A DNA stretch of 64,000 bases from Candidatus Micrarchaeota archaeon (lineage in GTDB: Archaea > Micrarchaeota > Micrarchaeia > Anstonellales > Bilamarchaeaceae): assembly GCA_964434735.1 (NCBI GenBank), contig CAYSWK010000001.1, forward strand, positions 2,537 to 66,536, in the 5' to 3' direction. Shown here piece after piece: positions 11,947 to 41,093 of the stretch. The notes under the pieces are model-generated. The model worked only from the letters and a program-made list of their open reading frames with translations. It was not told where the DNA came from and searched no databases. Within the stretch, counting starts at the first letter, position 1, and each line of letters starts with the position of its first letter. Position numbers and translations under genes: made by a program.

Positions 11947-13035
11947 ATGTCAAAGATTCGCGCAGCTGTTGTTGGAATAGGAAATTGTTTCTCAGGGCTA
12001 ATCCAAGGAATTGAGTATTATCGTTCCAATCCTTCTGAAAAAGTCATTGGGATCATGCATCAGTCTTTGGCAGGATATACCATTCATGACATTGAATTTG
12101 TGTGTGGATTTGATGTTGGGGAGAACAAAATAGGCGAATCCATTTCAGAAGCAATTTACCAGGAACCAAACCTTGTTACCTGGATTCCAAAAGAAAAAAT
12201 GCCAAAAACTGCTGGGCGAGTATATGAAGCGCCCGCACTCGATGGCGTAGGTATTTGGGTTGAAAATAAAGTCCATCCTATTACTAGTAAGAAAAGCACT
12301 GAGGAATTAACAAAGGAAATTCACAAAATACTTAAGGAAACAAAAGCGGAAATTCTTGTTTCTTATTTACCCGTAGGTTCAGAGAAAGCAACAAAGTATT
12401 GGGCGCAAGTATGTCTTGATTGCAACGTCGCGTTTGTAAATTGCATGCCTTCGTTCATTGCTTCAGAACCTTCCTGGGCTGAAAAATTCACTAAAAAGAA
12501 TATCCCGATTATCGGTGATGATATTAAAGGCCAAGTTGGTGCAACTATCGTGCATCGAACACTTGCACGACTTTGTGACGAACGAGGAACAAAGATTGAA
12601 AAAACATACCAAATCAACGTTGGTGGAAACACTGATTTTCTTAATATGAAGGAGCAGGACCGGCTTGTGTCTAAGAAAATTTCAAAAACTGAATCGGTTC
12701 AAAGCCAACTTTCAGAACGACTTCCTGATGATAAAATTTACGTGGGCCCCTCCGATTTCATCCCCTTCCTTGGAAACACCAAATTAATGTTTATGCGCAT
12801 CGAAGGAATGATGTGGGCAGGACGACCCTATAATATGGAAGTACGCCTTGAGGTTGATGACAAGGCCAATTCTGCAGGAATTGTCATAGATGCTATCCGC
12901 TTAGCAAAAATTGCTCTTGATAGGAAAATGGGTGGTCCAATTATCCCTGCAAGTGCGTATTTGATGAAGCACCCTCCGCAACAAATGAGTGATCCAGAGG
13001 CTCGAAAAGCGCTTGAGGAGTTTGTAAAAGGATAA
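11947..13035 (+). CDS. myo-inositol-1-phosphate synthase (archaeal type)
   Basis: N-terminal Rossmann AAVVGIGNCFSGLIQGIEYY, then VGGNTDFLNM and GPSDFIPFLGNTK, all characteristic of MIPS. Confidence 0.85.
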   Translation: MSKIRAAVVGIGNCFSGLIQGIEYYRSNPSEKVIGIMHQSLAGYTIHDIEFVCGFDVGENKIGESISEAIYQEPNLVTWIPKEKMPKTAGRVYEAPALDGVGIWVENKVHPITSKKSTEELTKEIHKILKETKAEILVSYLPVGSEKATKYWAQVCLDCNVAFVNCMPSFIASEPSWAEKFTKKNIPIIGDDIKGQVGATIVHRTLARLCDERGTKIEKTYQINVGGNTDFLNMKEQDRLVSKKISKTESVQSQLSERLPDDKIYVGPSDFIPFLGNTKLMFMRIEGMMWAGRPYNMEVRLEVDDKANSAGIVIDAIRLAKIALDRKMGGPIIPASAYLMKHPPQQMSDPEARKALEEFVKG

Positions 13036-16980: not shown

Positions 16981-17979
16981 ATGGGATTAGACAAGAAAGA
17001 CGTAAAAATATTAAAAATTATATCCGATAATGCAAGGATTCCGGTAACCGAACTGGCAAAACAAGTGGAGTTATCAAAAGATGCTGTTTCGTACCGATTG
17101 AGTAACCTTGAAGCTAATGGCGCAATAAGCAAATATATCTCATACATTTCATTGCCGGCATTAGGGTATACTTCGTTTCAAGTCACGTTACGACTTGCCG
17201 GAGGGAAGGAAAGCCTTGAAAAAACAGTCGAATTCCTCAAAAAACATCCGTTTTGTATCAATGCATTTACAACGCTTGGTGCATGGGATGTCTTGGCTGA
17301 ATTTGCCGCCCAAAATGAAGTTGAAGTCGCCAAAATCATGAATGAAATTGCGGAGCACCTTGGAAATATGCTTGAGGCAATAGACTCAAAAATGCCATTT
17401 TACTTATACAAAAGGCCAAGCACACGTGGACTTCTTGAGCAGGAAATGGAACACCTAGAAACAAACGAAAACCCGTCTTTTGGAAGCGCAAAACTCGATG
17501 AAACGGATGTTAAAATACTATCGCTCCTTTCGGAGCACGGGCGAATAAAACTAACCGAACTTGCAGAAAAACTTGGTATCGAACGAGACGTTGTAGCATA
17601 TCGAAAAAAACAACTTGAAGAAAAAGGTGTGATTGATAAGTACCAAACACGTCTTGACCTTTCATTTTTTGAATATTCTGATTACTACCTTACAATAAAA
17701 ATGAAAAATATGATACGAAGCCAGGAAGAACTATTCAAAAGGTATATCCAATCCTCACCAAATGTCACGTATGGTTTCAGAAGCGCTGCGGCGTTCGAAG
17801 CTATACTTTTTTATGCCGCACGTTCTCCTAAAGAATTTCATGAACAAATTATGGAGTTAAGAAATACGTTTTCATCGTTTCTTCAATCATTTGAAGTGCT
17901 CGTGGTCCTTAAAAATCACCATTATACTTTATTCCCTGTTGGGATACAATCAAAGATTTTAGAAAAAAGACCGGGTTAA
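16981..17979 (+). CDS. Tandem-fused Lrp/AsnC-family transcription regulator (two HTH plus two RAM-like modules)
   Basis: Two copies of D.KILK/D.KILSLLSE...ELA..V..S...V..R...LE..G.I spaced about 170 aa apart; 332 aa, twice the usual Lrp length. Confidence 0.7.
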   Translation: MGLDKKDVKILKIISDNARIPVTELAKQVELSKDAVSYRLSNLEANGAISKYISYISLPALGYTSFQVTLRLAGGKESLEKTVEFLKKHPFCINAFTTLGAWDVLAEFAAQNEVEVAKIMNEIAEHLGNMLEAIDSKMPFYLYKRPSTRGLLEQEMEHLETNENPSFGSAKLDETDVKILSLLSEHGRIKLTELAEKLGIERDVVAYRKKQLEEKGVIDKYQTRLDLSFFEYSDYYLTIKMKNMIRSQEELFKRYIQSSPNVTYGFRSAAAFEAILFYAARSPKEFHEQIMELRNTFSSFLQSFEVLVVLKNHHYTLFPVGIQSKILEKRPG

Positions 17980-20642: not shown

Positions 20643-21032
20643 TTGTTTATGAAGATAGAACAAATTTCACTTGATGCAAAGGGGCGTATCGTATTGCCGG
20701 CATCATTTCGTTCAGCATTATCCCTTTCGTATGGAGACTCTCTTTATTTAGCACTCGATGAAAAAAACCAAACGATCATTCTTTCTTCTAAACCAAATGA
20801 ATCGCTCTATGAATTAACAATTGCAATGGGCGATGCTCCAGGTACACTTGCACATTTGGCGTTGGTTCTTGCAAAACATAAAGTCGACCTGGTTTCAACC
20901 GAAAGCCACTCGCTTACACGTTCAAAAGAAGCAGTATGGAGAATAGTCTGCAAATTCGAAGGAGATTGGCAAGGCTTGCTTGAAGACTTAAAGAAAAATG
21001 GAGCCGTAAAAGTAGAAAAGAAAAAAATCTAG
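20643..21032 (+). CDS. Putative regulator: SpoVT/AbrB-like swapped-hairpin N-domain plus ACT-like C-domain
   Basis: N-terminal LDAKGRIVLPASFR is an AbrB/MazE-type motif. The C-terminal LTIAMGDAPGTLAHLALVLAKHKVDLVS resembles an ACT domain. Confidence 0.5.
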   Translation: MFMKIEQISLDAKGRIVLPASFRSALSLSYGDSLYLALDEKNQTIILSSKPNESLYELTIAMGDAPGTLAHLALVLAKHKVDLVSTESHSLTRSKEAVWRIVCKFEGDWQGLLEDLKKNGAVKVEKKKI

Positions 21033-21367: not shown

Positions 21368-22645
21368 TTGGAAACCCCATTGGAAAAACCGATTTGGGAT
21401 AAGTTACTTGATAGAAACACTAGTTCTAAGGAAGTTTTAGAAAAGGTAAAACAAATTCTTGAAAATATTAAAACTCGAGGATTTGAGGCTGTCAAAGAGT
21501 ATACGAAACGATTTGACGGGATAGAACGGGAATCTTTTGAAGTTCCAAAAAAAGAGATGCAAACTGCACTTAATGGCTTAACTGTTGAAGAACGCAAATG
21601 CATCGAACGCTCAATTGCTTCGGTTCGCGCAATCTGCCTTGAAGAAAAGAAAAATATCAAAAATACGGAACTCAATATGCAAGACTCCAAAACCCTCTTG
21701 CGCTATCTTCCGCTTGCCAAAGTAGGAATATACGTCCCAGCAGGCAAGGCACCGCTCCCAACTTCAGTAATCATGGCTTCAATTCCAGCACAAGTTGCAG
21801 GAGTAAAAGAGCTTATTCTTTGCTCACCTCCGCAAAAAGACGGGCAGGTAAACAAATACATACTTGCAACTGCAGCGCTTTGTGGAGTTACAAAAGTATA
21901 TGCTATTGGCGGAGCACAGGCAATAGGTGCATTGGCATATTGTTTTAATGTTGATTTGATTGCTGGACCAGGAAATGTATACGTGAGTGCTGCAAAACAG
22001 ATCGTACAAAGCCAAGGTGCATGCACGATAGATATGTTAGCTGGACCTTCAGAGGTTCTAGTCGTCTTAGAGTCTGTTGGAAACCCGAAACTGGATGCCG
22101 AAAACTGTCGCTTGGCAGCAAGCGACATGCTTGCTCAAGCTGAACACGGGCCCACATCTGCAGCAGTTTGCATTACTACTAGCAAGGAACTTGGGCAAAA
22201 AGTAAGGGAAGAAGTTGAAAAACAGCTTAATGCGCTTAAAGACCAAACTCCTCGCGAATCCATTAGATTGTACGGAACTGCAATTGTTACAAAGAGTATG
22301 CAGGAAGCAATTTCCCTTGCAAACGAATTTGCTGCAGAACACGTTGAAATATTTGCAAAGGATGCAAAAAAATACGCAATGCAAATTACGAATGCAGGCG
22401 CAATATTTGTCAATACTGCAGAAGTGTTTGGAGACTACGGGTTTGATTCAAGCAACCACATCTTGCCCACGGGGAGATCTGCCAGGTTTGCAAGTGGAGT
22501 AAGCATCCAAACATTCATGAAAAGGCAGTACGTAAAAATCGCAAATGCTGCAGCACAGGCAAAATGGGCAGAGGACTGCGCAAGATTTGCACGAATGGAA
22601 CAATTGGAAGCTCACGCCAAGTCTGCAGAATGCAGACAGTTTTGA
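21368..22645 (+). CDS. hisD: Histidinol dehydrogenase (apparent TTG start)
   Basis: ILENIKTRGFEAVKEYTKRFDG, SPPQKDG, DMLAGPSEVLV and AQAEHGP are HisD motifs. There is no in-frame ATG upstream, so the ORF begins at TTG 21368. Confidence 0.9.
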   Translation: METPLEKPIWDKLLDRNTSSKEVLEKVKQILENIKTRGFEAVKEYTKRFDGIERESFEVPKKEMQTALNGLTVEERKCIERSIASVRAICLEEKKNIKNTELNMQDSKTLLRYLPLAKVGIYVPAGKAPLPTSVIMASIPAQVAGVKELILCSPPQKDGQVNKYILATAALCGVTKVYAIGGAQAIGALAYCFNVDLIAGPGNVYVSAAKQIVQSQGACTIDMLAGPSEVLVVLESVGNPKLDAENCRLAASDMLAQAEHGPTSAAVCITTSKELGQKVREEVEKQLNALKDQTPRESIRLYGTAIVTKSMQEAISLANEFAAEHVEIFAKDAKKYAMQITNAGAIFVNTAEVFGDYGFDSSNHILPTGRSARFASGVSIQTFMKRQYVKIANAAAQAKWAEDCARFARMEQLEAHAKSAECRQF

Positions 22646-22672
22646 GTTCAGGATCTTGAGTCTTAAAAAAAG

Positions 22673-24352
22673 GTGGAAAAAATGATTAATGATATTATAC
22701 GCCAAGAAATACGCAACATGAACCCCTATGTGGGAGGAGAAACTACAGAAGTAGAGGTTAAACTCAACCAAAATGAGTCCCCTTACAATTTGCCAGAACC
22801 GATTCTTGCCAAGATACAGGAAAGGCTTGCTAACGTAAAATTTAACCGCTATAACGAAGGTTCACTCAAGCGTTTGCGAGAGTTAACTGCACAAATGTAC
22901 GGCCTTGATGCAGACCAAGTAATGTACGGTTGCGGGATAGATGAGATATTCTATTATATTATTCTTACATTTGTAGGCAAAGAAGAAAAAATAGTACGAC
23001 CTACGCCGAGCTTTGCAATGTATGAAATTTGCGCGCAAGTTGCGGGAGCAAAGGACGTGCCAGTTGCACTTGATACAAATTTCGAACTAACCGATGAATT
23101 CATAAAACAAAGCAAAGATGCAAAACTCACCTTTATTTGCAGGCCAAATGCACAAACCGGCAATTCGTGGGATAAAAAAACAATAGAACAAATTGTCAAA
23201 AATACAAAAGGAATAGTGTGCATTGACGAGGCATATGCGGAATTTGCGCAAGATGATTGCCTGGATCTTCTCAAATATGAAAACGTAATCCTTGTTCGTA
23301 CCTTTTCAAAGGCATATTTGGCAGCAGGAGTACGATTAGGATATGCTTTGGCAAGCAAGGAAGTCATTGCATACATGAATAGGGTGCGGCTGCCCTGGAA
23401 CGTCGGAGCTTTGCCACAGGTTGTTGGAGAGGTTATTCTTGAAAACCAACAAGTATTCAAGGAAAAAGTAGCTGAAATAAAGGAAAACCGCAAAGAGCTG
23501 TTTGAAGCACTCAAACTACGGACCAAGGTATTACCCACCCAAACCAATTTCATGTCATTTAAGGTAAGCGACCCAAAAGGTTTTTGCAAAACACTTAAAG
23601 AAACAGGAATTCTAGTTCGAAATGTAAGCAGCTACCCTGGCCTTGAAGGATATGTACGCGTAACCGTTGGAACGAAAAGGGAAAATGAACAGTTCCTCAA
23701 AGCATTTGACCAAGTGCAATTCAAACCAATTGACTCGATCATTTTTGATGTTGATGGGGTTCTCGTTGATGTTTCGAAATCATACCGTGAAGCAATCAAA
23801 TTGACCGTTGGACAGTTTAGAGGGACAAATGCAACTGATGAAGAAATTGAAAACATAAAGAAAAAACCAAACTCAAACAACGATTGGGTTGTCACATACG
23901 CACTTGCAACAGATTATACGGGAGAATTGTCAAAATTAGACCGAACAAATGCCAAATACCTTGAAATGAAGGAAGCATTTCAAAAATTCTACTTAGACGG
24001 ACTTATCGACAAGGAAGAAATTTATATGGATAAAGCCTATGTGCGGGCGATTCTTAAAAAAGGATTAAAGATCGGAGTTGTTACGTCGCGTCCACGTTTT
24101 GAAGCGTTGTACGTGCTTAAGCGAATTGGAGGGTTTGATGAGCAGTTCGTTATGGCACAGGAAGATTGCACCGAGGAAAAGCCATCGCCAAAGCCGATCA
24201 ATGAACTAGTCGCAAAAATGAAGGTAAAAAACCCGGCATATATAGGTGACACAATCAATGACAGGCTTGCTGCAGAACGTGCAGGAGTTCGGTACGAGGA
24301 AGTAAACAAAACACAAGACGTAAACGATATTTTAAAGAGGTTATTGAAATGA
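22673..24352 (+). CDS. hisC: Histidinol-phosphate aminotransferase fused to a C-terminal HAD-superfamily phosphatase domain
   Basis: The first roughly 350 aa form a class-II aminotransferase (SFSKAY PLP-lysine region). Residues about 355-559 start [11 protein letters not shown] (HAD motif I DxD), followed by VVTSRP (motif II) and [11 protein letters not shown] (motif IV). Confidence 0.85.
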
Positions 24353-24933
24353 GAACTGCAAAAATTGAAAGAAAAACAAAGGAAACGGAAATTTCACTTG
24401 AACTGAATTTGGACGGTACGGGTAAAAATAATATCAATACGGGAGTAGGCTTCCTTGACCACATGCTTACGCTTTTTTCAAAGCACTCACTCATTGACCT
24501 CACTGTTAATGCAAAGGGCGATTTGGAAGTTGATGATCACCACACTGTTGAGGACATAGGTATTTGCTTAGGCGAAGCCATTGCAAAGGCAACGGGAGAT
24601 AAGAAAGGGGTCAAAAGATATGGCTTTTTCCTTCTTCCAATGGACGAGTCCCTTGGCCAAGTTGCACTTGACTTAGCTGGAAGAACCTCCTTTGTGTACA
24701 ATGCTGTGTTTGAACGGGAAAAAGTAGGTGAACTCAGCACTGAACTGATCAAGGATTTCTTTTACGCAATTGCGCTTAATGCCAAAATGAACCTCAATAT
24801 CAAAATTGAGGGTGAAAACAATCACCACAAGTCAGAGGCAATGTTCAAGGCGTTTGCACGCGCTTTGCGTATGGCAGTGGAAATTGATGACCGAGTAAAA
24901 AATGACATTCCTTCAACAAAAGGAACATTATAG
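24349..24933 (+). CDS. hisB: Imidazoleglycerol-phosphate dehydratase
   Basis: [16 protein letters not shown] and GFLDHML, the typical IGPD N-terminus; overlaps the hisC stop (ATGA). Confidence 0.9.
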
Positions 24934-25767
24934 GTGATACTAATGAAAATTGCAATTCCCAACAAGGGAAGATTATATGAAGATGCTGTAAAGGAACTAG
25001 CGGCAATTGGGATTGTGTTTCCAAGCAATGGCCGAAAACTTTACACAAGTACAAGCCAACCAAATATACAAATAGTTCTATTGCGGGCTCAAGATATTCC
25101 TTGGTATGTAGCAAGTGGATCCGTAGAACTTGGAATTACGGGTACAGACATGATTGAGGAAAGCGATGTCACGGTAACTAAGATTCTTGATCTTGATTTT
25201 GGCAAATGCAAAATAGCTTTAGCTGCACAAAAAGGAACGAAAATTGCGAATTTTGACAAAATTGCAACTAAACTTACCAATATTGCCAAGAAATGGATCG
25301 CAAAAAAGAAATTGAATGCACAAGTTATTCCTCTTTCAGGAGCGCTTGAGTTTGCACCTTTTGCAGGTGTTGCACCTGCAATAATTGACCAGGTTTCAAC
25401 GGGCGACACGTTGCGCGAAAATAACCTTGAAGTAATCGAAGTTATTTTTGAATCCAATGCCTGCCTCATAACTAAAAACAAAACAAGCGAGGAAATGGAA
25501 GAAATAAAAATGGCATTACAAAGCGTTATGCTTGCCAGGAAAAAAATGTATATTATGCTCAACGTAACTAATGAAGAAAAACTTTCGGCAGTTGTACGAG
25601 TACTTCCTTGTCTTGAAAGCCCTACGGTGATAAAACTTGCCAAACCTGGAGAATACGCCGTGCACTCAGTTGTTGATTCAAAAGATCTTAGCCAAACTAT
25701 GCGTACGATCTCAAAAGCTGGTGCTGAAGGCATTCTTGTAACAAAACTTGAACGGGTAGTGCTATGA
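24934..25767 (+). CDS. hisG: ATP phosphoribosyltransferase, long form
   Basis: IAIPNKGRL N-terminus, ARAQDIPWYV-like region; the 277 aa length implies a C-terminal regulatory domain. Confidence 0.9.
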   Translation: MILMKIAIPNKGRLYEDAVKELAAIGIVFPSNGRKLYTSTSQPNIQIVLLRAQDIPWYVASGSVELGITGTDMIEESDVTVTKILDLDFGKCKIALAAQKGTKIANFDKIATKLTNIAKKWIAKKKLNAQVIPLSGALEFAPFAGVAPAIIDQVSTGDTLRENNLEVIEVIFESNACLITKNKTSEEMEEIKMALQSVMLARKKMYIMLNVTNEEKLSAVVRVLPCLESPTVIKLAKPGEYAVHSVVDSKDLSQTMRTISKAGAEGILVTKLERVVL

Positions 25768-26333
25768 TCGGGATTATAGATGTAGGAAATGCCAAAAGTG
25801 TTGAAAATGCACTTGAAAAATTAGGCTATTCTAGCGTACGAACTATCGATTCTACAATCATTAGCAAGTGTAATGGAATCATACTTCCAGGAGTTGGCGA
25901 ATTTGGAACGGTAATGCAACAAATCGATCCGCTGTCGCCACTCATCAAACGATGGAAAAAACCGTTTCTTGGCATTTGTGCAGGAATGCAAGTATTGTTT
26001 GAATCAAGTGAGGAAAGCCCCAGTGTTGAAGGGCTTGGAATCATTAAAGGAAAAGTAAAAAAATTCCAAAACATACGAACTCCCCAAATAGGTTGGAATA
26101 AACTTGAAAATAGTACTAATCCGCTGCTTGGAAAAGAAGAGTATGTATATTTTGTTAATTCCTACTATTGCGTCCCGCGGGAAAAGGCAATTACTAGTAC
26201 TGCCAAATACGGAATTAACTTTGCAGCATCAATAAATAAAGAAAATTACTACGGCGTACAATTTCACCCTGAAAAAAGCGGGGAATGTGGGCTGGAGATG
26301 CTCAACAAATTCGCGAGGTTAGTAGTATGTTGA
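25764..26333 (+). CDS. hisH: Imidazole glycerol phosphate synthase, glutamine amidotransferase subunit
   Basis: IGIIDVGNAKSV, GICAGMQ (catalytic Cys), VQFHPEKS. Confidence 0.9.
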   Translation: MIGIIDVGNAKSVENALEKLGYSSVRTIDSTIISKCNGIILPGVGEFGTVMQQIDPLSPLIKRWKKPFLGICAGMQVLFESSEESPSVEGLGIIKGKVKKFQNIRTPQIGWNKLENSTNPLLGKEEYVYFVNSYYCVPREKAITSTAKYGINFAASINKENYYGVQFHPEKSGECGLEMLNKFARLVVC

Positions 26334-26986
26334 TTATTCCTGCGATCGACTTACTAGACGGAAACTGCGTACGTTTGCTCAAAGGTAAACGAGATGAGTG
26401 CACAGTCTATTCGAACAATCCGTTAGAAGTAATTAAATCCTTTAAAGAACAAGGCGCAAAACTTGTCCACATTGTAGACCTTAATGGTGCATTTGATGGT
26501 ACAATGAAGAATCTGCCAAGTATCAAAGAATTAGCAAAAGAAATTGAAATAGAAGTGGGCGGTGGAATACGAACCAAAGAAAAAATAGATCAACTAAGGG
26601 CAAGCGGAGTGAAAAGAATAATTGTAGGAACGAACCTTCCTGAATTAAAGAAATATGGAGTAATCGGTGCACTTGACTTTAAAGATGGAAAATTCGCAAC
26701 AAAAGGATGGGTTGAGACAAAAGAGGTTAATATCAAGGAACTTCTTAAAGGACTCACCGAAGTGATTGTTACTGATGTTTCAACTGATGGAATGTTAAGT
26801 GGACCAAACGTGCCTCTTATGAAAAAAATCCAAAGTTATGGCATCAACGTCATTGCTTCTGGGGGGATTGGCTCATTAGAAGATATTGCAAAACTCAAAA
26901 AAGCAGGCATAACTGGGGCAATTGTTGGAAAGGCACTTTACGAAAAAAAATTCTCACTTGAAGAGGCGATTGATTATGCTAACTAA
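26327..26986 (+). CDS. hisA: ProFAR isomerase
   Basis: MLIIPAIDLLDGNCVRLLKG and VHIVDLNGA; the start is at the internal Met. Confidence 0.9.
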   Translation: MLIIPAIDLLDGNCVRLLKGKRDECTVYSNNPLEVIKSFKEQGAKLVHIVDLNGAFDGTMKNLPSIKELAKEIEIEVGGGIRTKEKIDQLRASGVKRIIVGTNLPELKKYGVIGALDFKDGKFATKGWVETKEVNIKELLKGLTEVIVTDVSTDGMLSGPNVPLMKKIQSYGINVIASGGIGSLEDIAKLKKAGITGAIVGKALYEKKFSLEEAIDYAN

Positions 26987-27734
26987 ACGGATCATACCTT
27001 GTCTTGATGTTGCACAGGGTCGAGTAGTTAAAGGTACGAATTTTGTCAATTTGCAGGATAATGGAGATGCCGTTGAACTTGCAAAAAAGTACTATTTGGA
27101 AGGTGCAGATGAGCTATGCTTTCTTGATATTACTGCAACAGTTGAAAAAAGGAAAACGCTTCTTGAATTAGTGCAACGTGTCGCCCGTGAGATATTTATT
27201 CCATTTTCAGTTGGCGGAGGGATACGCACACTTGAAGATGCCCGTGCAGTACTGACATGCGGCGCTGAAAAGGTAGTTCTTGGAACTATAGCCATACAAC
27301 AACCTAAAATAGTACAAGAAATTGCAAAAGAATTTGGAAGCCAGGCAGCGGTTATTTCAATAGATGCAAAACGCGTAGGCAATTCTTGGAACCAGTTTAT
27401 CAAAGGCGGGCGGGAAGATTCTGGTAAAGATGTAATCAAATTTGCAAAAGAAATGGAAAACTTGGGAGCCGGAGAGATTCTGCTCAATTCAATAGATAAG
27501 GATGGCACAAAACAAGGATTTGATCTAGAACTATGCAATGCAGTTTGTAATGCCGTAAACATTCCAGTAATCGCATCAAGCGGGGCTAAGGATGCACAGA
27601 GTTTTGTTGAAATTTTCAAAAAAACACAGGTAAGTGCTGCTTTAGCTGCACGCATATTTCACACTAATGAAGTTTCGATTAGAGAGGTTAAGAAAATACT
27701 GACTAAAAACAAGGTGAACATACGTGAAATTTGA
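26976..27734 (+). CDS. hisF: Imidazole glycerol phosphate synthase, cyclase subunit
   Basis: RIIPCLDVAQGRVVKG and CFLDITAT; the start is at the internal Met MLTKRII. Confidence 0.9.
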   Translation: MLTKRIIPCLDVAQGRVVKGTNFVNLQDNGDAVELAKKYYLEGADELCFLDITATVEKRKTLLELVQRVAREIFIPFSVGGGIRTLEDARAVLTCGAEKVVLGTIAIQQPKIVQEIAKEFGSQAAVISIDAKRVGNSWNQFIKGGREDSGKDVIKFAKEMENLGAGEILLNSIDKDGTKQGFDLELCNAVCNAVNIPVIASSGAKDAQSFVEIFKKTQVSAALAARIFHTNEVSIREVKKILTKNKVNIREI

Positions 27735-28302
27735 TAAAAAAGGACTCATTCCAATGATTATTCAAGATGCTAAAACAAGGGAAGTACTTTCACTTGTCTA
27801 TGGAAATAAAGAATCCATACAAAAAATGAAAGAGACAAGATTTGTATGGCGATACTCTCGTTCAAAAAAACGAATTATGCAAAAGGGTGAAGAATCCGGA
27901 AATGTTCAAAAAGTAGTCTCAATTGTTGAAGACTGCGATTCAGACGCACTGCTTGTACTAGCTCAACCATCGGGGCCGGCATGCCACAAAGGCACAGGAA
28001 GCTGTTTTAGTGATGCTATAACTAGTTTAGAATCAGACACGTTAGAAAAACTAGAGCAGATAATTGAAAATCGGATCAAGAATCCTAAAGAAGGGAGCTA
28101 TACTGCTAAATTGGCTGGTAATGGCGCACTCCTCAACGGCAAGTTACGTGAGGAACTGTATGAATTCATATACTTTAAGGACAAGGACAATCTGAATTGG
28201 GAAATGGCTGACCTTTTGTACTTCATGCTCGTACTCTTGAAAAAAAACGAGGGAAGCTTAAAAGAGGTTAAAGAAAAGCTGCAAGAACGGATGAAGATCT
28301 AA
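27724..28302 (+). CDS. hisI: Bifunctional phosphoribosyl-AMP cyclohydrolase / phosphoribosyl-ATP pyrophosphatase
   Basis: The N half (GLIPMIIQD...CDSDALLVLAQPSGPACHKGTGSCF) is HisI. The C half (LEKLEQIIENR...) is HisE. Confidence 0.85.
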   Translation: MKFDKKGLIPMIIQDAKTREVLSLVYGNKESIQKMKETRFVWRYSRSKKRIMQKGEESGNVQKVVSIVEDCDSDALLVLAQPSGPACHKGTGSCFSDAITSLESDTLEKLEQIIENRIKNPKEGSYTAKLAGNGALLNGKLREELYEFIYFKDKDNLNWEMADLLYFMLVLLKKNEGSLKEVKEKLQERMKI

Positions 28303-34146: not shown

Positions 34147-34201
34147 TTTTTAAAAGAAAGAAAATAAAAAGGAGTGGGGAGAAGATATCTTACTGATGAT
34201 T

Positions 34202-35446
34202 ATGCCTAAGCTTACACCTAAAGGAATGCGCGACTTTTTGCCTGAAGAAATGATTTTCAGGGAAGAGATAATCCAAAAAATAACAAAAGTTTACCAGCGA
34301 TATGGGTTTGTACCGCTTGAAACGCCTGCAATGGAGTATAAGGATACGCTTGCGGCAAAAGCAGGCGAAGCAATTAAACGCGAAATCTTTCTTATTGAAG
34401 GTGGAGAATACGGGCTCAGGTTCGATTTGACCGTTCCTTTGGCACGTGTTGCTGCAACAAATGCATTTGCAAAACCATTCAAAAGATACTGCATCTCACG
34501 AGTTTGGCGGCACGAAGAACCCCAAAAGGGGCGCTTTAGGGAATTTTGGCAATGCGATGCGGACATTATTGGTACGCCTTCAATGAAAGCAGAGGTTGAG
34601 CTTATACGCTGTGCGGTTGATGCACTTAATGAAATCGGCTTTGAAAAACCAACGATCCTCATCAACAACCGCAAGATCATGAATGGCCTTGCCGAAAAAC
34701 TCAATGTCCACGACAAGCTTGATGAACTCCTTAGGATAATAGATAAAATAGACAAACTGGGCGAAAAGGGGGTTCGTGAGCACTTAGCAGAACACTTCTC
34801 AAAAGAAGTTATTGACCAGGTATTCAAGCTCATAAAAACAACAGGCTCAAACGAGGAAAAGTTGAAAAACGCAAAAGTACTCAGCGAAGAAGGTGCAAAA
34901 GAACTCGAAGAAATCCTCAATCTTACAAAGGGAATTAATATGGTACTTGACCTTTCGCTCGTACGCGGGTTGGGATATTATACGGGTCCCGTATTCGAAA
35001 TAAAATTAAGCGATGAAATAGGTTCATGTGGCGGTGGAGGAAGGTATGACAACCTCTTAAGCACCTACGGCCAAGGAGACTGTGCAACGGGAATTTCATT
35101 AGGTCTTGAACGGATCCTCTATTTACTCAATGAGAGGAAACAGGAAACTAAAAAGACGTTTACAAAGCTGTTCATAGCCCCGGTAAAACCAGAATTGTTT
35201 GGCGAATGTGAAAAACTTGCACATGTACTTAGGAAAGCTGGGATACCGACCGAAGTGGATATCAATGAGCGTAACCTCAAAAAACAACTTGAATATGCAA
35301 ATGCAATGGGGATTCAATTTGTTGTAGTCGTCGGTGAAAAGGAAATCCAATCAAAAAAATATGCGCTCAAAAATATGAAGGATGGGAAATCAACCGATGC
35401 GACCCTTGAGCAGGTCAAACAGGAATTGCTCAAACACTGTGAATAG
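34202..35446 (+). CDS. hisS: Histidyl-tRNA synthetase
   Basis: Class II motifs: GMRDFLPEE (motif 1 region), FQCDADIIG (motif 2 region), GGGGRYDNL (motif 3); C-terminal anticodon-binding domain. Confidence 0.9.
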   Translation: MPKLTPKGMRDFLPEEMIFREEIIQKITKVYQRYGFVPLETPAMEYKDTLAAKAGEAIKREIFLIEGGEYGLRFDLTVPLARVAATNAFAKPFKRYCISRVWRHEEPQKGRFREFWQCDADIIGTPSMKAEVELIRCAVDALNEIGFEKPTILINNRKIMNGLAEKLNVHDKLDELLRIIDKIDKLGEKGVREHLAEHFSKEVIDQVFKLIKTTGSNEEKLKNAKVLSEEGAKELEEILNLTKGINMVLDLSLVRGLGYYTGPVFEIKLSDEIGSCGGGGRYDNLLSTYGQGDCATGISLGLERILYLLNERKQETKKTFTKLFIAPVKPELFGECEKLAHVLRKAGIPTEVDINERNLKKQLEYANAMGIQFVVVVGEKEIQSKKYALKNMKDGKSTDATLEQVKQELLKHCE

Positions 35447-40723: not shown

Positions 40724-40744
40724 AGTGTGTTTTATTGCCAGGAT

Positions 40745-40840
40745 CGCATAATCCGGTAGTGCGTCAGTCTCGAAAACAATTATCGTGTAAACTGATCCGT
40801 AAGGATTGTAGGTTCAAATCCTACTCCTGGCGTTTTTCTT
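40745..40840 (+). tRNA. tRNA-Ser (anticodon CGA) with a 15-nt intron at the canonical 37/38 position
   Basis: Acceptor GCCAGGA/UCCUGGC, anticodon stem UCAGU...ACUGA interrupted by CUCGAAA plus a 15-nt insert, long variable arm UCCGUAAGGA, T-arm GUAGG-UUCAAAU-CCUAC, followed by a T-run. Confidence 0.7.
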
Positions 40841-40942: not shown

Positions 40943-41093
40943 GCCACTGTAACTCAGCGGTAGAGTGCCTCTCTCGTAAATCGGTTTTAAATTTCGAGTT
41001 GGGCGTTTCGTCTCAAAAAACGAAACGCAACACGGAAAACGATCAACCGATCAGGACAGGAGGAAGTCAGGAGTTCAAATCTCCTCTGTGGCT
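40943..41093 (+). tRNA. tRNA-Thr (anticodon CGU) with a 79-nt intron at 37/38
   Basis: Acceptor GCCACUG/CUGUGGC (one U-U), D-arm ACUC-AGCGGUA-GAGU, anticodon stem CCUCU/GGAGG, loop CUCGUA|A split by a 79-nt insert (40979-41057), T-arm AGGAG-UUCAAAU-CUCCU. Confidence 0.65.

What the first reader, a model, noticed from the sequence alone, without database searches (positions are those of the whole stretch)
22673..24352. hisC fused to a HAD phosphatase domain: candidate missing histidinol-phosphate phosphatase
The operon encodes every histidine step except HolP phosphatase. The hisC ORF continues for about 200 aa with the full set of HAD motifs ([22 protein letters not shown]). The aminotransferase product L-histidinol-phosphate is the phosphatase substrate, so a HisC-HAD fusion would channel consecutive steps. 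The archaeal HolPase is poorly defined.
Basis: partly seen in the sequence, partly recalled or inferred. Interest (0 to 1): 0.5.

Follow-up and report, generated by a model that had tools for sequence, protein, structure and literature searches.

The report
HisC fused to archaeal-type histidinol-phosphate phosphatase
One gene in this archaeal histidine operon joins the aminotransferase HisC to a phosphatase domain from a family already shown in other archaea to perform the next step of histidine synthesis, so the apparent pathway gap is filled by a known enzyme type in a fused form that databases label only as HisC.

Summary
The ORF at 22673-24352 (likely start ATG 22682, 556 aa) contains an intact HisC domain and an intact HAD phosphatase domain joined by about 5 residues. 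It sits in a complete hisD-hisC/HAD-hisB-G-H-A-F-IE operon with no other phosphatase.

The interpretation (missing histidinol-phosphate phosphatase) is strongly supported but not new in kind. The domain belongs to the toHisN/nmHisN family of HAD HolPases, characterised in Thermococcus (2008) and Nitrosopumilus (Kinateder 2024). Evidence:
- Profile-profile probability is 99.9% against the Thermococcales enzymes.
- It carries the published cap fingerprint Y/K/D plus I/I, with one exchange (D25 to R) also seen in Euryarchaeota and delta-proteobacteria.

Homologues lie between hisC and hisB in many phyla. I collected 152 other full-length HisC-HAD fusions (Micrarchaeota, Diapherotrites, Aenigmarchaeota, CPR bacteria, Aminicenantes, Myxococcota). 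Larger fusions with HisB, HisG and HisD also exist.

The named fusion hits are labelled HisC, apart from one mislabelled as another transaminase. I found no paper describing the fusion. Channelling is untested, and no enzyme of the R-variant class has been assayed. This is a new variant of a known kind, of moderate interest.

The parts
22682..24352 (+). hisC-hisN fusion gene (556 aa plus stop; the open frame begins at GTG 22673; the public annotation starts at 22718)
   Evidence: ORF and translation; two Pfam domains; 100% identical NCBI protein P0186; AF2 full-length model with mean pLDDT 94.6 and pTM 0.76
22682..23719 (+). HisC domain (aa 1-346), histidinol-phosphate aminotransferase. PLP lysine K210 is at 23309-23311 (FSKAY). 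PNAQTGN, IDEAY and VRVTVG motifs are present.
   Evidence: TIGR01141 scores 315.5 bits, above the 276.55 cutoff. End-to-end alignment to solved HisC 3EUC, 3HDO, 1H1C and 1FG3, E 2e-46 to 1e-37. S209, K210, D182-Y185 and R326 are invariant in 62 fusions.
23720..23734 (+). Junction (FKPID). The last HisC helix ends at about aa 346 and the first HAD strand starts at aa 352, so there is no long linker.
   Evidence: DSSP of the full-length model, with block pLDDT about 85 at aa 341-350. In the split relative L082 the HisC stop and HAD start overlap by 4 bp at the equivalent point.
23720..24349 (+). HAD phosphatase domain (aa 347-556), toHisN/nmHisN-type predicted histidinol-phosphate phosphatase. 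Motif I is D356/D358 (23747-23755), motif II is T468 (24083-24085), motif III is K500 (24179-24181), and motif IV is D523/D527 (24248-24262).
23771..24058 (+). All-helical C1 cap (domain residues 18-113) carrying the specificity fingerprint: V364, Y368 (23783-23785), R369 (23786-23788), I372, I389, K393 (23858-23860) and D401 (23882-23884). These correspond to nmHisN I20, Y24, D25, I28, I52, K56 and E64.
   Evidence: The cap lies between strand 6-9 and strand 117-121 of the model. Fingerprint definition comes from PMC10804674. The mapping uses the alignments to Tt82 and T. kodakarensis. Conservation is shown.
21368..22645 (+). hisD (histidinol dehydrogenase), which uses the phosphatase product
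   Evidence: Pfam Histidinol_dh, E 6e-126
24349..24933 (+). hisB, IGP dehydratase only (194 aa, no N-terminal HAD domain). Its ATG overlaps the fusion gene's TGA (ATGA).
   Evidence: Pfam IGPD at aa 31-173 is the only domain found; sequence read directly
24934..28302 (+). hisG (long form), hisH, hisA, hisF and hisIE, the rest of the pathway
   Evidence: Pfam and NCBIfam hits
20649..21032 (+). Conserved AbrB/SpoVT-type protein with an ACT-like C-terminal half, directly upstream of hisD. It is a possible operon regulator (context, not proven).
   Evidence: MraZ and MazE_antitoxin hits. Sub-threshold ACT hits in three orthologues, E 3e-5 to 0.018. Same position in L081 and L082.

Best explanation
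The gene encodes a bifunctional HisC/HisN enzyme. The N-terminal PLP-dependent domain transaminates imidazole-acetol phosphate to L-histidinol phosphate (step 7). The C-terminal Mg-dependent HAD domain hydrolyses histidinol phosphate to histidinol (step 8), which HisD, encoded just upstream, oxidises to histidine. In the HAD domain, D356 is the nucleophile, D358 the acid/base, and T468, K500, D523 and D527 complete the site. The helical C1 cap supplies substrate contacts through Y368, K393 and D401.

The HAD domain is a compact member of the toHisN/nmHisN family of archaeal-type HolPases. It is not the E. coli HisB-N type.

Shown here: domain integrity, family homology including the cap, conservation of the fingerprint, the gene-order and fusion pattern, and absence of another candidate in the window.

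Inferred: the substrate itself. Also inferred is that fusion gives 1:1 expression and proximity, and lets an irreversible phosphatase pull the reversible transamination forward. True channelling is speculative.
For: (1) Both halves are intact.

(3) The published fingerprint is Y24, D25, K/R56 and D/E64 plus I28 and I52. Here it reads Y, R, K, D plus I, I. K393 aligns with the invariant Thermococcales R48 and D401 with the invariant D56. The D25-to-R exchange is the one the authors report in Euryarchaeota and delta-proteobacteria and judge 'likely HolPases'.

(4) Homologues sit directly after hisC, followed by hisB where that DNA is held (L016 shows only hisC upstream), in Microgenomates, Aminicenantes, Terriglobia, Myxococcota, Bryobacterales, Sulfopaludibacter and Micrarchaeota, and directly after hisC at the operon end in Thermococci.

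(5) Single-ORF HisC-HAD fusions: 84 of the 148 newly listed 50%-identity representatives and 153 full-length sequences in all, counting the window's own.

(6) Larger fusions involve only His enzymes: HisC-HAD-HisB, HisG-HisC-HAD and HisA-HisIE-HisD-HisC-HAD.

(7) hisB here lacks a HolPase domain, and no PHP, IMPase or second HAD protein is in the window.

(8) nmHisN was specific for HolP among ten substrates tested.
Against: No activity was measured for this protein or for any R25-class member. In nmHisN, D25A cuts kcat/KM about 220-fold, and here that position is arginine. That position is variable across the fusions (R 106, L 9, D 8, N 5, I 5), so the binding mode may differ.

The TIGR01548 score of 111.9 is below the curated cutoff of 140.2.

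HAD phosphatases are often promiscuous. From my memory only, Tt82 was published as having diverse substrate specificity.

Only 64 kb of the genome is visible, so another HolPase elsewhere cannot be excluded. An inositol-1-phosphate synthase at 11947-13035 suggests an IMPase-family enzyme may exist elsewhere.

I could not obtain the nmHisN sequence for a direct alignment.
Confidence: 0.85

Rival explanations
1. The HAD domain is a phosphatase with another physiological substrate, for example phosphoglycolate, a sugar phosphate, phosphoserine or pyridoxal phosphate, attached to HisC for a reason unrelated to step 8. The true HolPase would then be encoded elsewhere in the genome.
Against: All those family hits are far below their cutoffs: 55 against 180 bits for PGP, 33 against 84 for HisB-N type. 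The cap, which sets specificity, is homologous to the characterised HolPase family and not to those enzymes. The gene is locked between hisC and hisB in many phyla and fuses only with His enzymes. nmHisN did not hydrolyse PLP, phosphoserine, phosphothreonine or sugar phosphates.
Confidence: 0.08
2. The HAD domain is catalytically inactive or purely structural or regulatory, for example a substrate-binding or oligomerisation module for HisC.
For: No direct evidence. This is a generic possibility for fused domains.
Against: Every catalytic residue (D10, D12, T122, K154, D177, D181 in domain numbering) is essentially invariant in 153 fusions and in 54 standalone homologues. That is the pattern expected of an active enzyme under purifying selection.
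Confidence: 0.03
3. The single ORF is an artefact (a frameshift or lost stop codon in a metagenome assembly) and the organism really has separate hisC and hisN genes.
For: The closest relative with a standalone HAD gene (L082; HAD 61% identical, HisC 54%) has separate genes overlapping by 4 bp at the same point, within an A-rich run.
Against: The same in-frame junction occurs in about 25 Micrarchaeota sequences and in 153 fusions overall, from independent assemblies. The junction is modelled confidently. Even if the genes were split, the functional assignment would be unchanged.
Confidence: 0.03

Closest known systems
toHisN-type monofunctional HAD HolPase of Thermococcales (T. onnurineus TON_0887, from memory: Lee et al. 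2008, J Bacteriol; relatives T. kodakarensis P0347 and Tt82, PDB 6IAH)
nmHisN (Nmar_1556) of Nitrosopumilus maritimus and its homologue clusters (Kinateder et al. 2024, PMC10804674)
   Same: It is a HAD enzyme with one large helical cap, and the gene lies between hisC and hisB. The fingerprint Y24, K56 and D/E64 plus I28 and I52 is matched with identical spacing. The D25-to-R variant equals their cluster II (Euryarchaeota) and delta-proteobacterial clusters.
   Different: nmHisN is a monomeric standalone enzyme with a nine-helix cap and D25. The window's domain has about six cap helices, R at that position, and is fused to HisC. The paper does not mention HisC fusions, DPANN or Micrarchaeota.
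E. coli-type bifunctional HisB (HisNB): HAD-IIIA HolPase domain fused to IGP dehydratase
   Same: It is also a HAD-superfamily HolPase fused to another His enzyme in a compact operon.
PHP-type (HisK/HisJ) and IMPase-type (actinobacterial HisN) HolPases
   Same: They catalyse the same reaction.
   Different: They have unrelated folds, and no member is encoded in the window.

Membership tests
HisC, histidinol-phosphate aminotransferase (TIGR01141) | Score above the curated equivalog cutoff, with full-length alignment | tested here: met
   315.5 bits against a 276.55 cutoff, aa 7-344 on model positions 1-348. End-to-end alignment with solved HisC structures.
HisC, histidinol-phosphate aminotransferase (TIGR01141) | PLP-binding lysine and class I/II aminotransferase motifs | tested here: met
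   K210 in FSKAY, PNAQTGN, IDEAY and R326 are aligned with the solved enzymes and invariant in 62 fusions.
HAD superfamily phosphatase | Motifs I-IV (DxD, T/S, K, DxxxD) on a Rossmann-like core | tested here: met
   Pfam HAD_2 at 65 bits and Hydrolase at 60 bits, both above cutoff. D356, D358, T468, K500, D523 and D527 are present. The model has pLDDT 96.4.
toHisN/nmHisN-type HAD HolPase | Homology to experimentally characterised members over core and cap | tested here: met
toHisN/nmHisN-type HAD HolPase | Single large all-helical C1 cap inserted after motif I | tested here: met
   Helices at 19-34, 40-47, 55-64, 78-92, 95-98 and 105-113 lie between strands 6-9 and 117-121. This is fewer helices than the seven (toHisN) or nine (nmHisN) described.
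toHisN/nmHisN-type HAD HolPase | Fingerprint Y24, K/R56 and D/E64, plus accessory I28 and I52 | tested here: met
   Y368, K393, D401, I372 and I389. In the 153 fusions the counts are Y 149, K/R 152 and D/E 152.
toHisN/nmHisN-type HAD HolPase | Fingerprint residue D25 | tested here: not met
   Arginine (R369) occupies this position. The authors describe the same exchange in Euryarchaeota and delta-proteobacteria as likely compatible but unverified. The position is variable in his-linked members.
toHisN/nmHisN-type HAD HolPase | Location in a his gene cluster next to hisC | tested here: met
   It is fused to hisC and followed by hisB. The same order occurs in many phyla.
toHisN/nmHisN-type HAD HolPase | Specific hydrolysis of L-histidinol phosphate | not testable with these tools
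   This needs an enzyme assay or genetic complementation.
TIGR01548 (HAD-SF-IA-hyp1, hypothetical equivalog) | Score above the curated cutoff | tested here: not met
   It is the best NCBIfam hit for the domain, but at 111.9 bits against a cutoff of 140.2. Several homologues are labelled TIGR01548 by JGI.
E. coli HisB-N type HolPase (HAD-IIIA, TIGR01656) | Score above cutoff, small-cap HAD-IIIA fold, fusion to IGPD | tested here: not met
PHP-type or IMPase-type HolPase elsewhere in the locus | A PHP or Inositol_P domain protein is present | tested here: not met
   None was found among roughly 70 window ORFs scanned. The rest of the genome is not available.

The most novel reading that the evidence does not exclude
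The HisC-HisN fusion would be a true two-step machine. The short rigid junction would place the HAD active site next to the PLP site of the HisC dimer, so that histidinol phosphate is handed over without equilibrating with the cytosol. The arginine replacing D25 would be part of a substrate-binding mode specific to this class. On this reading, the fusion and its HisB, HisG and HisD super-fusions are the missing proof that the whole R25 class is HolPase. That class spans DPANN archaea, CPR bacteria, Myxococcota, Acidobacteriota and many Euryarchaeota. It would close a good part of the commonest remaining gap in amino-acid pathway annotation: hisN is missing in 20% of prototrophs and in two thirds of histidine-producing archaea in KEGG.
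Probability: 0.2. Interest if true: 0.5.

Novelty: new variant of a known kind. Interest (0 to 1): 0.35.

Why it matters
HolPase is the least conserved and most often unannotated step of histidine biosynthesis. GapMind 2026 still lists it as the single commonest gap, missing in 42 of 208 prototrophs. KEGG lacks it for about two thirds of histidine-producing archaea.

This locus shows that in Micrarchaeota the step is hidden inside a gene that the named database records label only as a transaminase, usually 'histidinol-phosphate transaminase'. The same applies to many other lineages (Diapherotrites, Aenigmarchaeota, CPR bacteria, Aminicenantes, Myxococcota).

The recurrent fusion to HisC, and occasionally to HisB, HisG and HisD, is independent Rosetta-stone evidence. 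It supports HolPase function for the D25-to-R class of nmHisN homologues, which the 2024 study could only call 'likely'.

It also adds hisC to the set of his genes known to take part in fusions, since the 2007 catalogue lists none involving it.

The practical value is better annotation and metabolic reconstruction, for example not calling such DPANN archaea histidine auxotrophs. The conceptual surprise is modest.

Tried and rejected
- Direct comparison with nmHisN (Nmar_1556) failed. The paper's supplements are not held, the AFDB fold library was unavailable, cluster look-ups of standalone homologues gave no organism names, and no other paper mentions the locus tag. I used the Thermococcales enzymes and the published residue numbering instead.
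- The look-up of encoding contigs could not locate the window's own protein. The source is therefore inferred as a Micrarchaeota MAG from its nearest named relatives.
About two thirds of the 80 loci are unrelated HADs, so the taxon list is a sample and not a census.
- Literature searches for a described HisC-HAD/HisN fusion, for Micrarchaeota histidine biosynthesis, for Tt82 substrates and for TON_0887 found nothing relevant.
- Rejected explanations: assembly artefact, E. coli HisB-N type, phosphoglycolate, phosphoserine or PLP phosphatase, and an inactive domain.
- The rough NJ/Fitch analysis suggests at least about 16 fused/standalone switches, and places the split L082 gene inside a fused Micrarchaeota clade. 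The sampling is biased towards fusions and the tree is crude, so I draw only the qualitative conclusion of repeated fusion or fission.

Full report
**Observation**

A single + strand open reading frame runs from 22673 (GTG) to the TGA at 24350-24352. The probable start is the ATG at 22682, giving 556 aa. It follows a GGTGG at 22671-22675, and residues 2-12 align with the N-terminal arm of solved HisC enzymes. The public record for the identical protein (P0186, 544 aa) starts 12 codons later.

Pfam finds an aminotransferase class I/II domain at aa 26-341 (E 7e-51) and a HAD domain at aa 353-538 (E 1e-17). NCBIfam's hisC equivalog TIGR01141 scores 315.5 bits, above its cutoff of 276.55.

**Surroundings**

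The surrounding genes are hisD (21368-22645), hisB (24349-24933), hisG long form (24934-25767), hisH, hisA, hisF and hisIE, ending at 28302. hisB is 194 aa with an IGPD domain only, and its ATG overlaps the fusion gene's stop.

**Organism**

The window is archaeal. It encodes A-type ATPase subunits, Alba, Nop5, PAC2 and L10P with its insertion domain. Two Rfam tRNA matches of 96 and 151 nt were missed by ARAGORN and are probably intron-containing.

The nearest named relatives of the fusion protein, at 46-62% identity, are all 'Candidatus Micrarchaeota archaeon'. I infer a Micrarchaeota (DPANN) MAG.

**Integrity of both halves**

The HisC half aligns end to end with solved HisC structures 3EUC, 3HDO, 1H1C and 1FG3. 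The PLP lysine (K210, FSKAY), PNAQTGN, IDEAY and the C-terminal arginine (VRVTVG) are all in place and are invariant among 62 fusions.

The HAD half models with pLDDT 96.4 as a Rossmann-like core with one all-helical C1 cap inserted after motif I. The full-length model has mean pLDDT 94.6 and pTM 0.76. Only about five residues separate the last HisC helix from the first HAD strand.

**What the HAD domain is**

The literature settles the family. Kinateder et al. 2024 (PMC10804674) showed that Nmar_1556 of Nitrosopumilus maritimus is a specific HolPase, which they named nmHisN:
- It is a HAD protein encoded between hisC and hisB.
- Its kcat/KM is about 1.1e4 per M per s, and nine other phosphoesters were not hydrolysed.
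- It is distantly homologous to the Thermococcus HolPase toHisN (Lee 2008).
- It carries a cap fingerprint of Y24, D25, K/R56 and D/E64, plus accessory I28 and I52.
- Homologues in Euryarchaeota and delta-proteobacteria carry R instead of D25 and were judged likely HolPases.

I could not obtain the nmHisN sequence, so I tested the link through the Thermococcales branch:
- The best PDB sequence match of the domain's family profile is Tt82 of T. thioreducens (6IAH, E 2e-29, covering the cap).
- The standalone HAD gene that ends a Thermococci his operon right after hisC (L022) retrieves the T. kodakarensis and T. thioreducens proteins.
- The window domain matches the T. kodakarensis protein at E 7e-14.
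- A profile-profile comparison of the two families gives 99.9% probability, E 3.5e-35, over 209 columns.

In these alignments Y368 pairs with the Thermococcales Y18, R369 with their invariant D19, K393 with their invariant R48, and D401 with their invariant D56. This reproduces the paper's statement that toHisN is YDRD.

The window's fingerprint is thus Y-R-K-D with I and I at the accessory sites. That is one exchange, the same as in the paper's cluster II and delta-proteobacterial clusters.

**Comparative genomics**

A sample of GTDB genomes shows the homologue immediately downstream of hisC and upstream of hisB in Microgenomates, Aminicenantes, Terriglobia, Myxococcota, Bryobacterales and Sulfopaludibacter. 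In an Angelobacter locus (L016) it follows hisC, but no hisB hit was found in the DNA held. In Thermococci it sits after hisC at the operon end.

In four of these (Microgenomates L001, Aminicenantes L003, Myxococcota L006 and L007) HisC and HAD form one ORF. An exhaustive HMMER search with the full-length protein found that 84 of the 148 newly listed 50%-identity cluster representatives are proteins of at least 500 aa aligned across both domains. The named database adds about 25 Micrarchaeota fusions, plus Diapherotrites, Aenigmarchaeota and Patescibacteria examples.

Ca. Bilamarchaeum dharawalense has the identical operon. An Aenigmarchaeota MAG has hisG, hisC-HAD, hisB, hisF, hisA-IE, hisD and hisS.

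Across 153 full-length fusions, counting the window's own, the catalytic residues and Y, I, K/R, D/E and W of the cap are essentially invariant. Only the D25-equivalent varies (R 106, L 9, D 8, N 5, I 5).

Larger fusions exist: HisC-HAD-HisB (762 aa), HisG-HisC-HAD (764 and 782 aa) and HisA-HisIE-HisD-HisC-HAD (1501 aa). The domain's only fusion partners are His enzymes, which is classic Rosetta-stone evidence for a role in this pathway. HolPase is the only step left unassigned.

The relative with the closest standalone HAD gene (L082) has hisC and the HAD gene separate, overlapping by 4 bp at the equivalent point. A rough tree suggests many fused/standalone switches.

**Rivals**

- No PHP, IMPase or second HAD protein is encoded in the window. 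This rests on Pfam and NCBIfam scans of roughly 70 ORFs and a six-frame HMM and motif scan.
- Other HAD specificities score far below their cutoffs and do not explain the his linkage.
- An inactive domain is contradicted by residue conservation.
- An assembly artefact is contradicted by the many independent fusions.

**Remaining weaknesses**

No assay exists for any R25-class member, and D25A is strongly deleterious in nmHisN. TIGR01548 is matched below its cutoff. The rest of the genome is unseen. Channelling is wholly untested.

**Novelty**

The enzyme family and its role are known (2008, 2024). The fusion to HisC is widespread in sequence databases. Every named fusion hit I saw is labelled 'histidinol-phosphate transaminase' or 'histidinol-phosphate aminotransferase', with three exceptions. 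One is labelled '(5-formylfuran-3-yl)methyl phosphate transaminase', one partial record carries a generic aminotransferase name, and one fragment is labelled a TIGR01548-family HAD hydrolase.

I found no paper that describes the fusion. The 2007 catalogue of his gene fusions lists five, none involving hisC. GapMind 2026 does not cite the 2024 work and still counts hisN as the commonest gap.

I therefore class this as a new variant of a known kind. It is a compact, HisC-fused, D25-to-R member of the toHisN/nmHisN HolPase family, with moderate interest that lies mainly in annotation and in supporting the function of the R25 class.

Noticed in passing
window 20649-21032 (+); L081 6181-6570 and 5779-6168; L082 2120-2509: A protein of about 129 aa sits directly upstream of hisD in three Micrarchaeota. 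It has an AbrB/SpoVT-type N-terminus (MraZ and MazE_antitoxin hits) and a C-terminal half that gives consistent but sub-threshold ACT-domain hits (E 3e-5 to 0.018). It could be an amino-acid-sensing transcriptional regulator of the his operon.
   Followed up: partly
window 40737-40832 and 40943-41093 (+): Two full-length Rfam tRNA matches of 96 and 151 nt were not found by ARAGORN. They are probably intron-containing archaeal tRNAs, and the 151-nt one would have an unusually long or multiple intron.
   Followed up: no
proteins P0112, P0088, P0243, P0160, P0135 (metagenomic): Higher-order histidine-pathway fusions occur elsewhere: HisC-HAD-HisB (762 aa), HisG-HisC-HAD (764 and 782 aa), HisA-HisIE-HisD-HisC-HAD (1501 aa) and HisD-HisC (778 aa). 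None is in the 2007 catalogue of his fusions.
   Followed up: partly
L082 3949-5624 (Logan ERR15087788): The relative with the closest standalone HAD gene has separate hisC and HAD genes with a 4-bp ATGA overlap in an A-rich run, nested among fused Micrarchaeota sequences. This is either a secondary fission or an indel error in that assembly.
   Followed up: partly
L083 9067-10281 (Aenigmarchaeota MAG GCA_044240345.1): A 404-aa gene combines His_biosynth (HisA-like) with PRA-CH and PRA-PH domains, an apparent HisA-HisIE fusion in the same operon as a HisC-HAD fusion.
   Followed up: no
protein P0205 / L081 8001-9692 (Ca. Bilamarchaeum dharawalense): This HisC-HAD fusion is annotated at NCBI as '(5-formylfuran-3-yl)methyl phosphate transaminase', a methanofuran-pathway name. 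Given its position inside a complete his operon, the name is almost certainly wrong.
   Followed up: no
window 34196-35446 (+); L081 13814-15043; L083 11470-12762: Histidyl-tRNA synthetase lies about 6 kb downstream of the his operon in the window. It lies immediately after the operon in Bilamarchaeum and in the Aenigmarchaeota MAG, which is a recurring his-hisS linkage in DPANN.
   Followed up: no
window 11947-13035 (+): A myo-inositol-1-phosphate synthase gene is present. This implies an inositol monophosphatase somewhere in the genome, which is the family that supplies HolPase in Actinobacteria, so it is a possible back-up activity. None is in the window.
   Followed up: no
window 16981-17979 (+): A 332-aa protein has two tandem winged-helix HTH modules (AsnC-type and MarR-type) and weak hits to the NirD/L-like siroheme decarboxylase HTH. 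This is an unusual duplicated Lrp/AsnC-like architecture.
   Followed up: no
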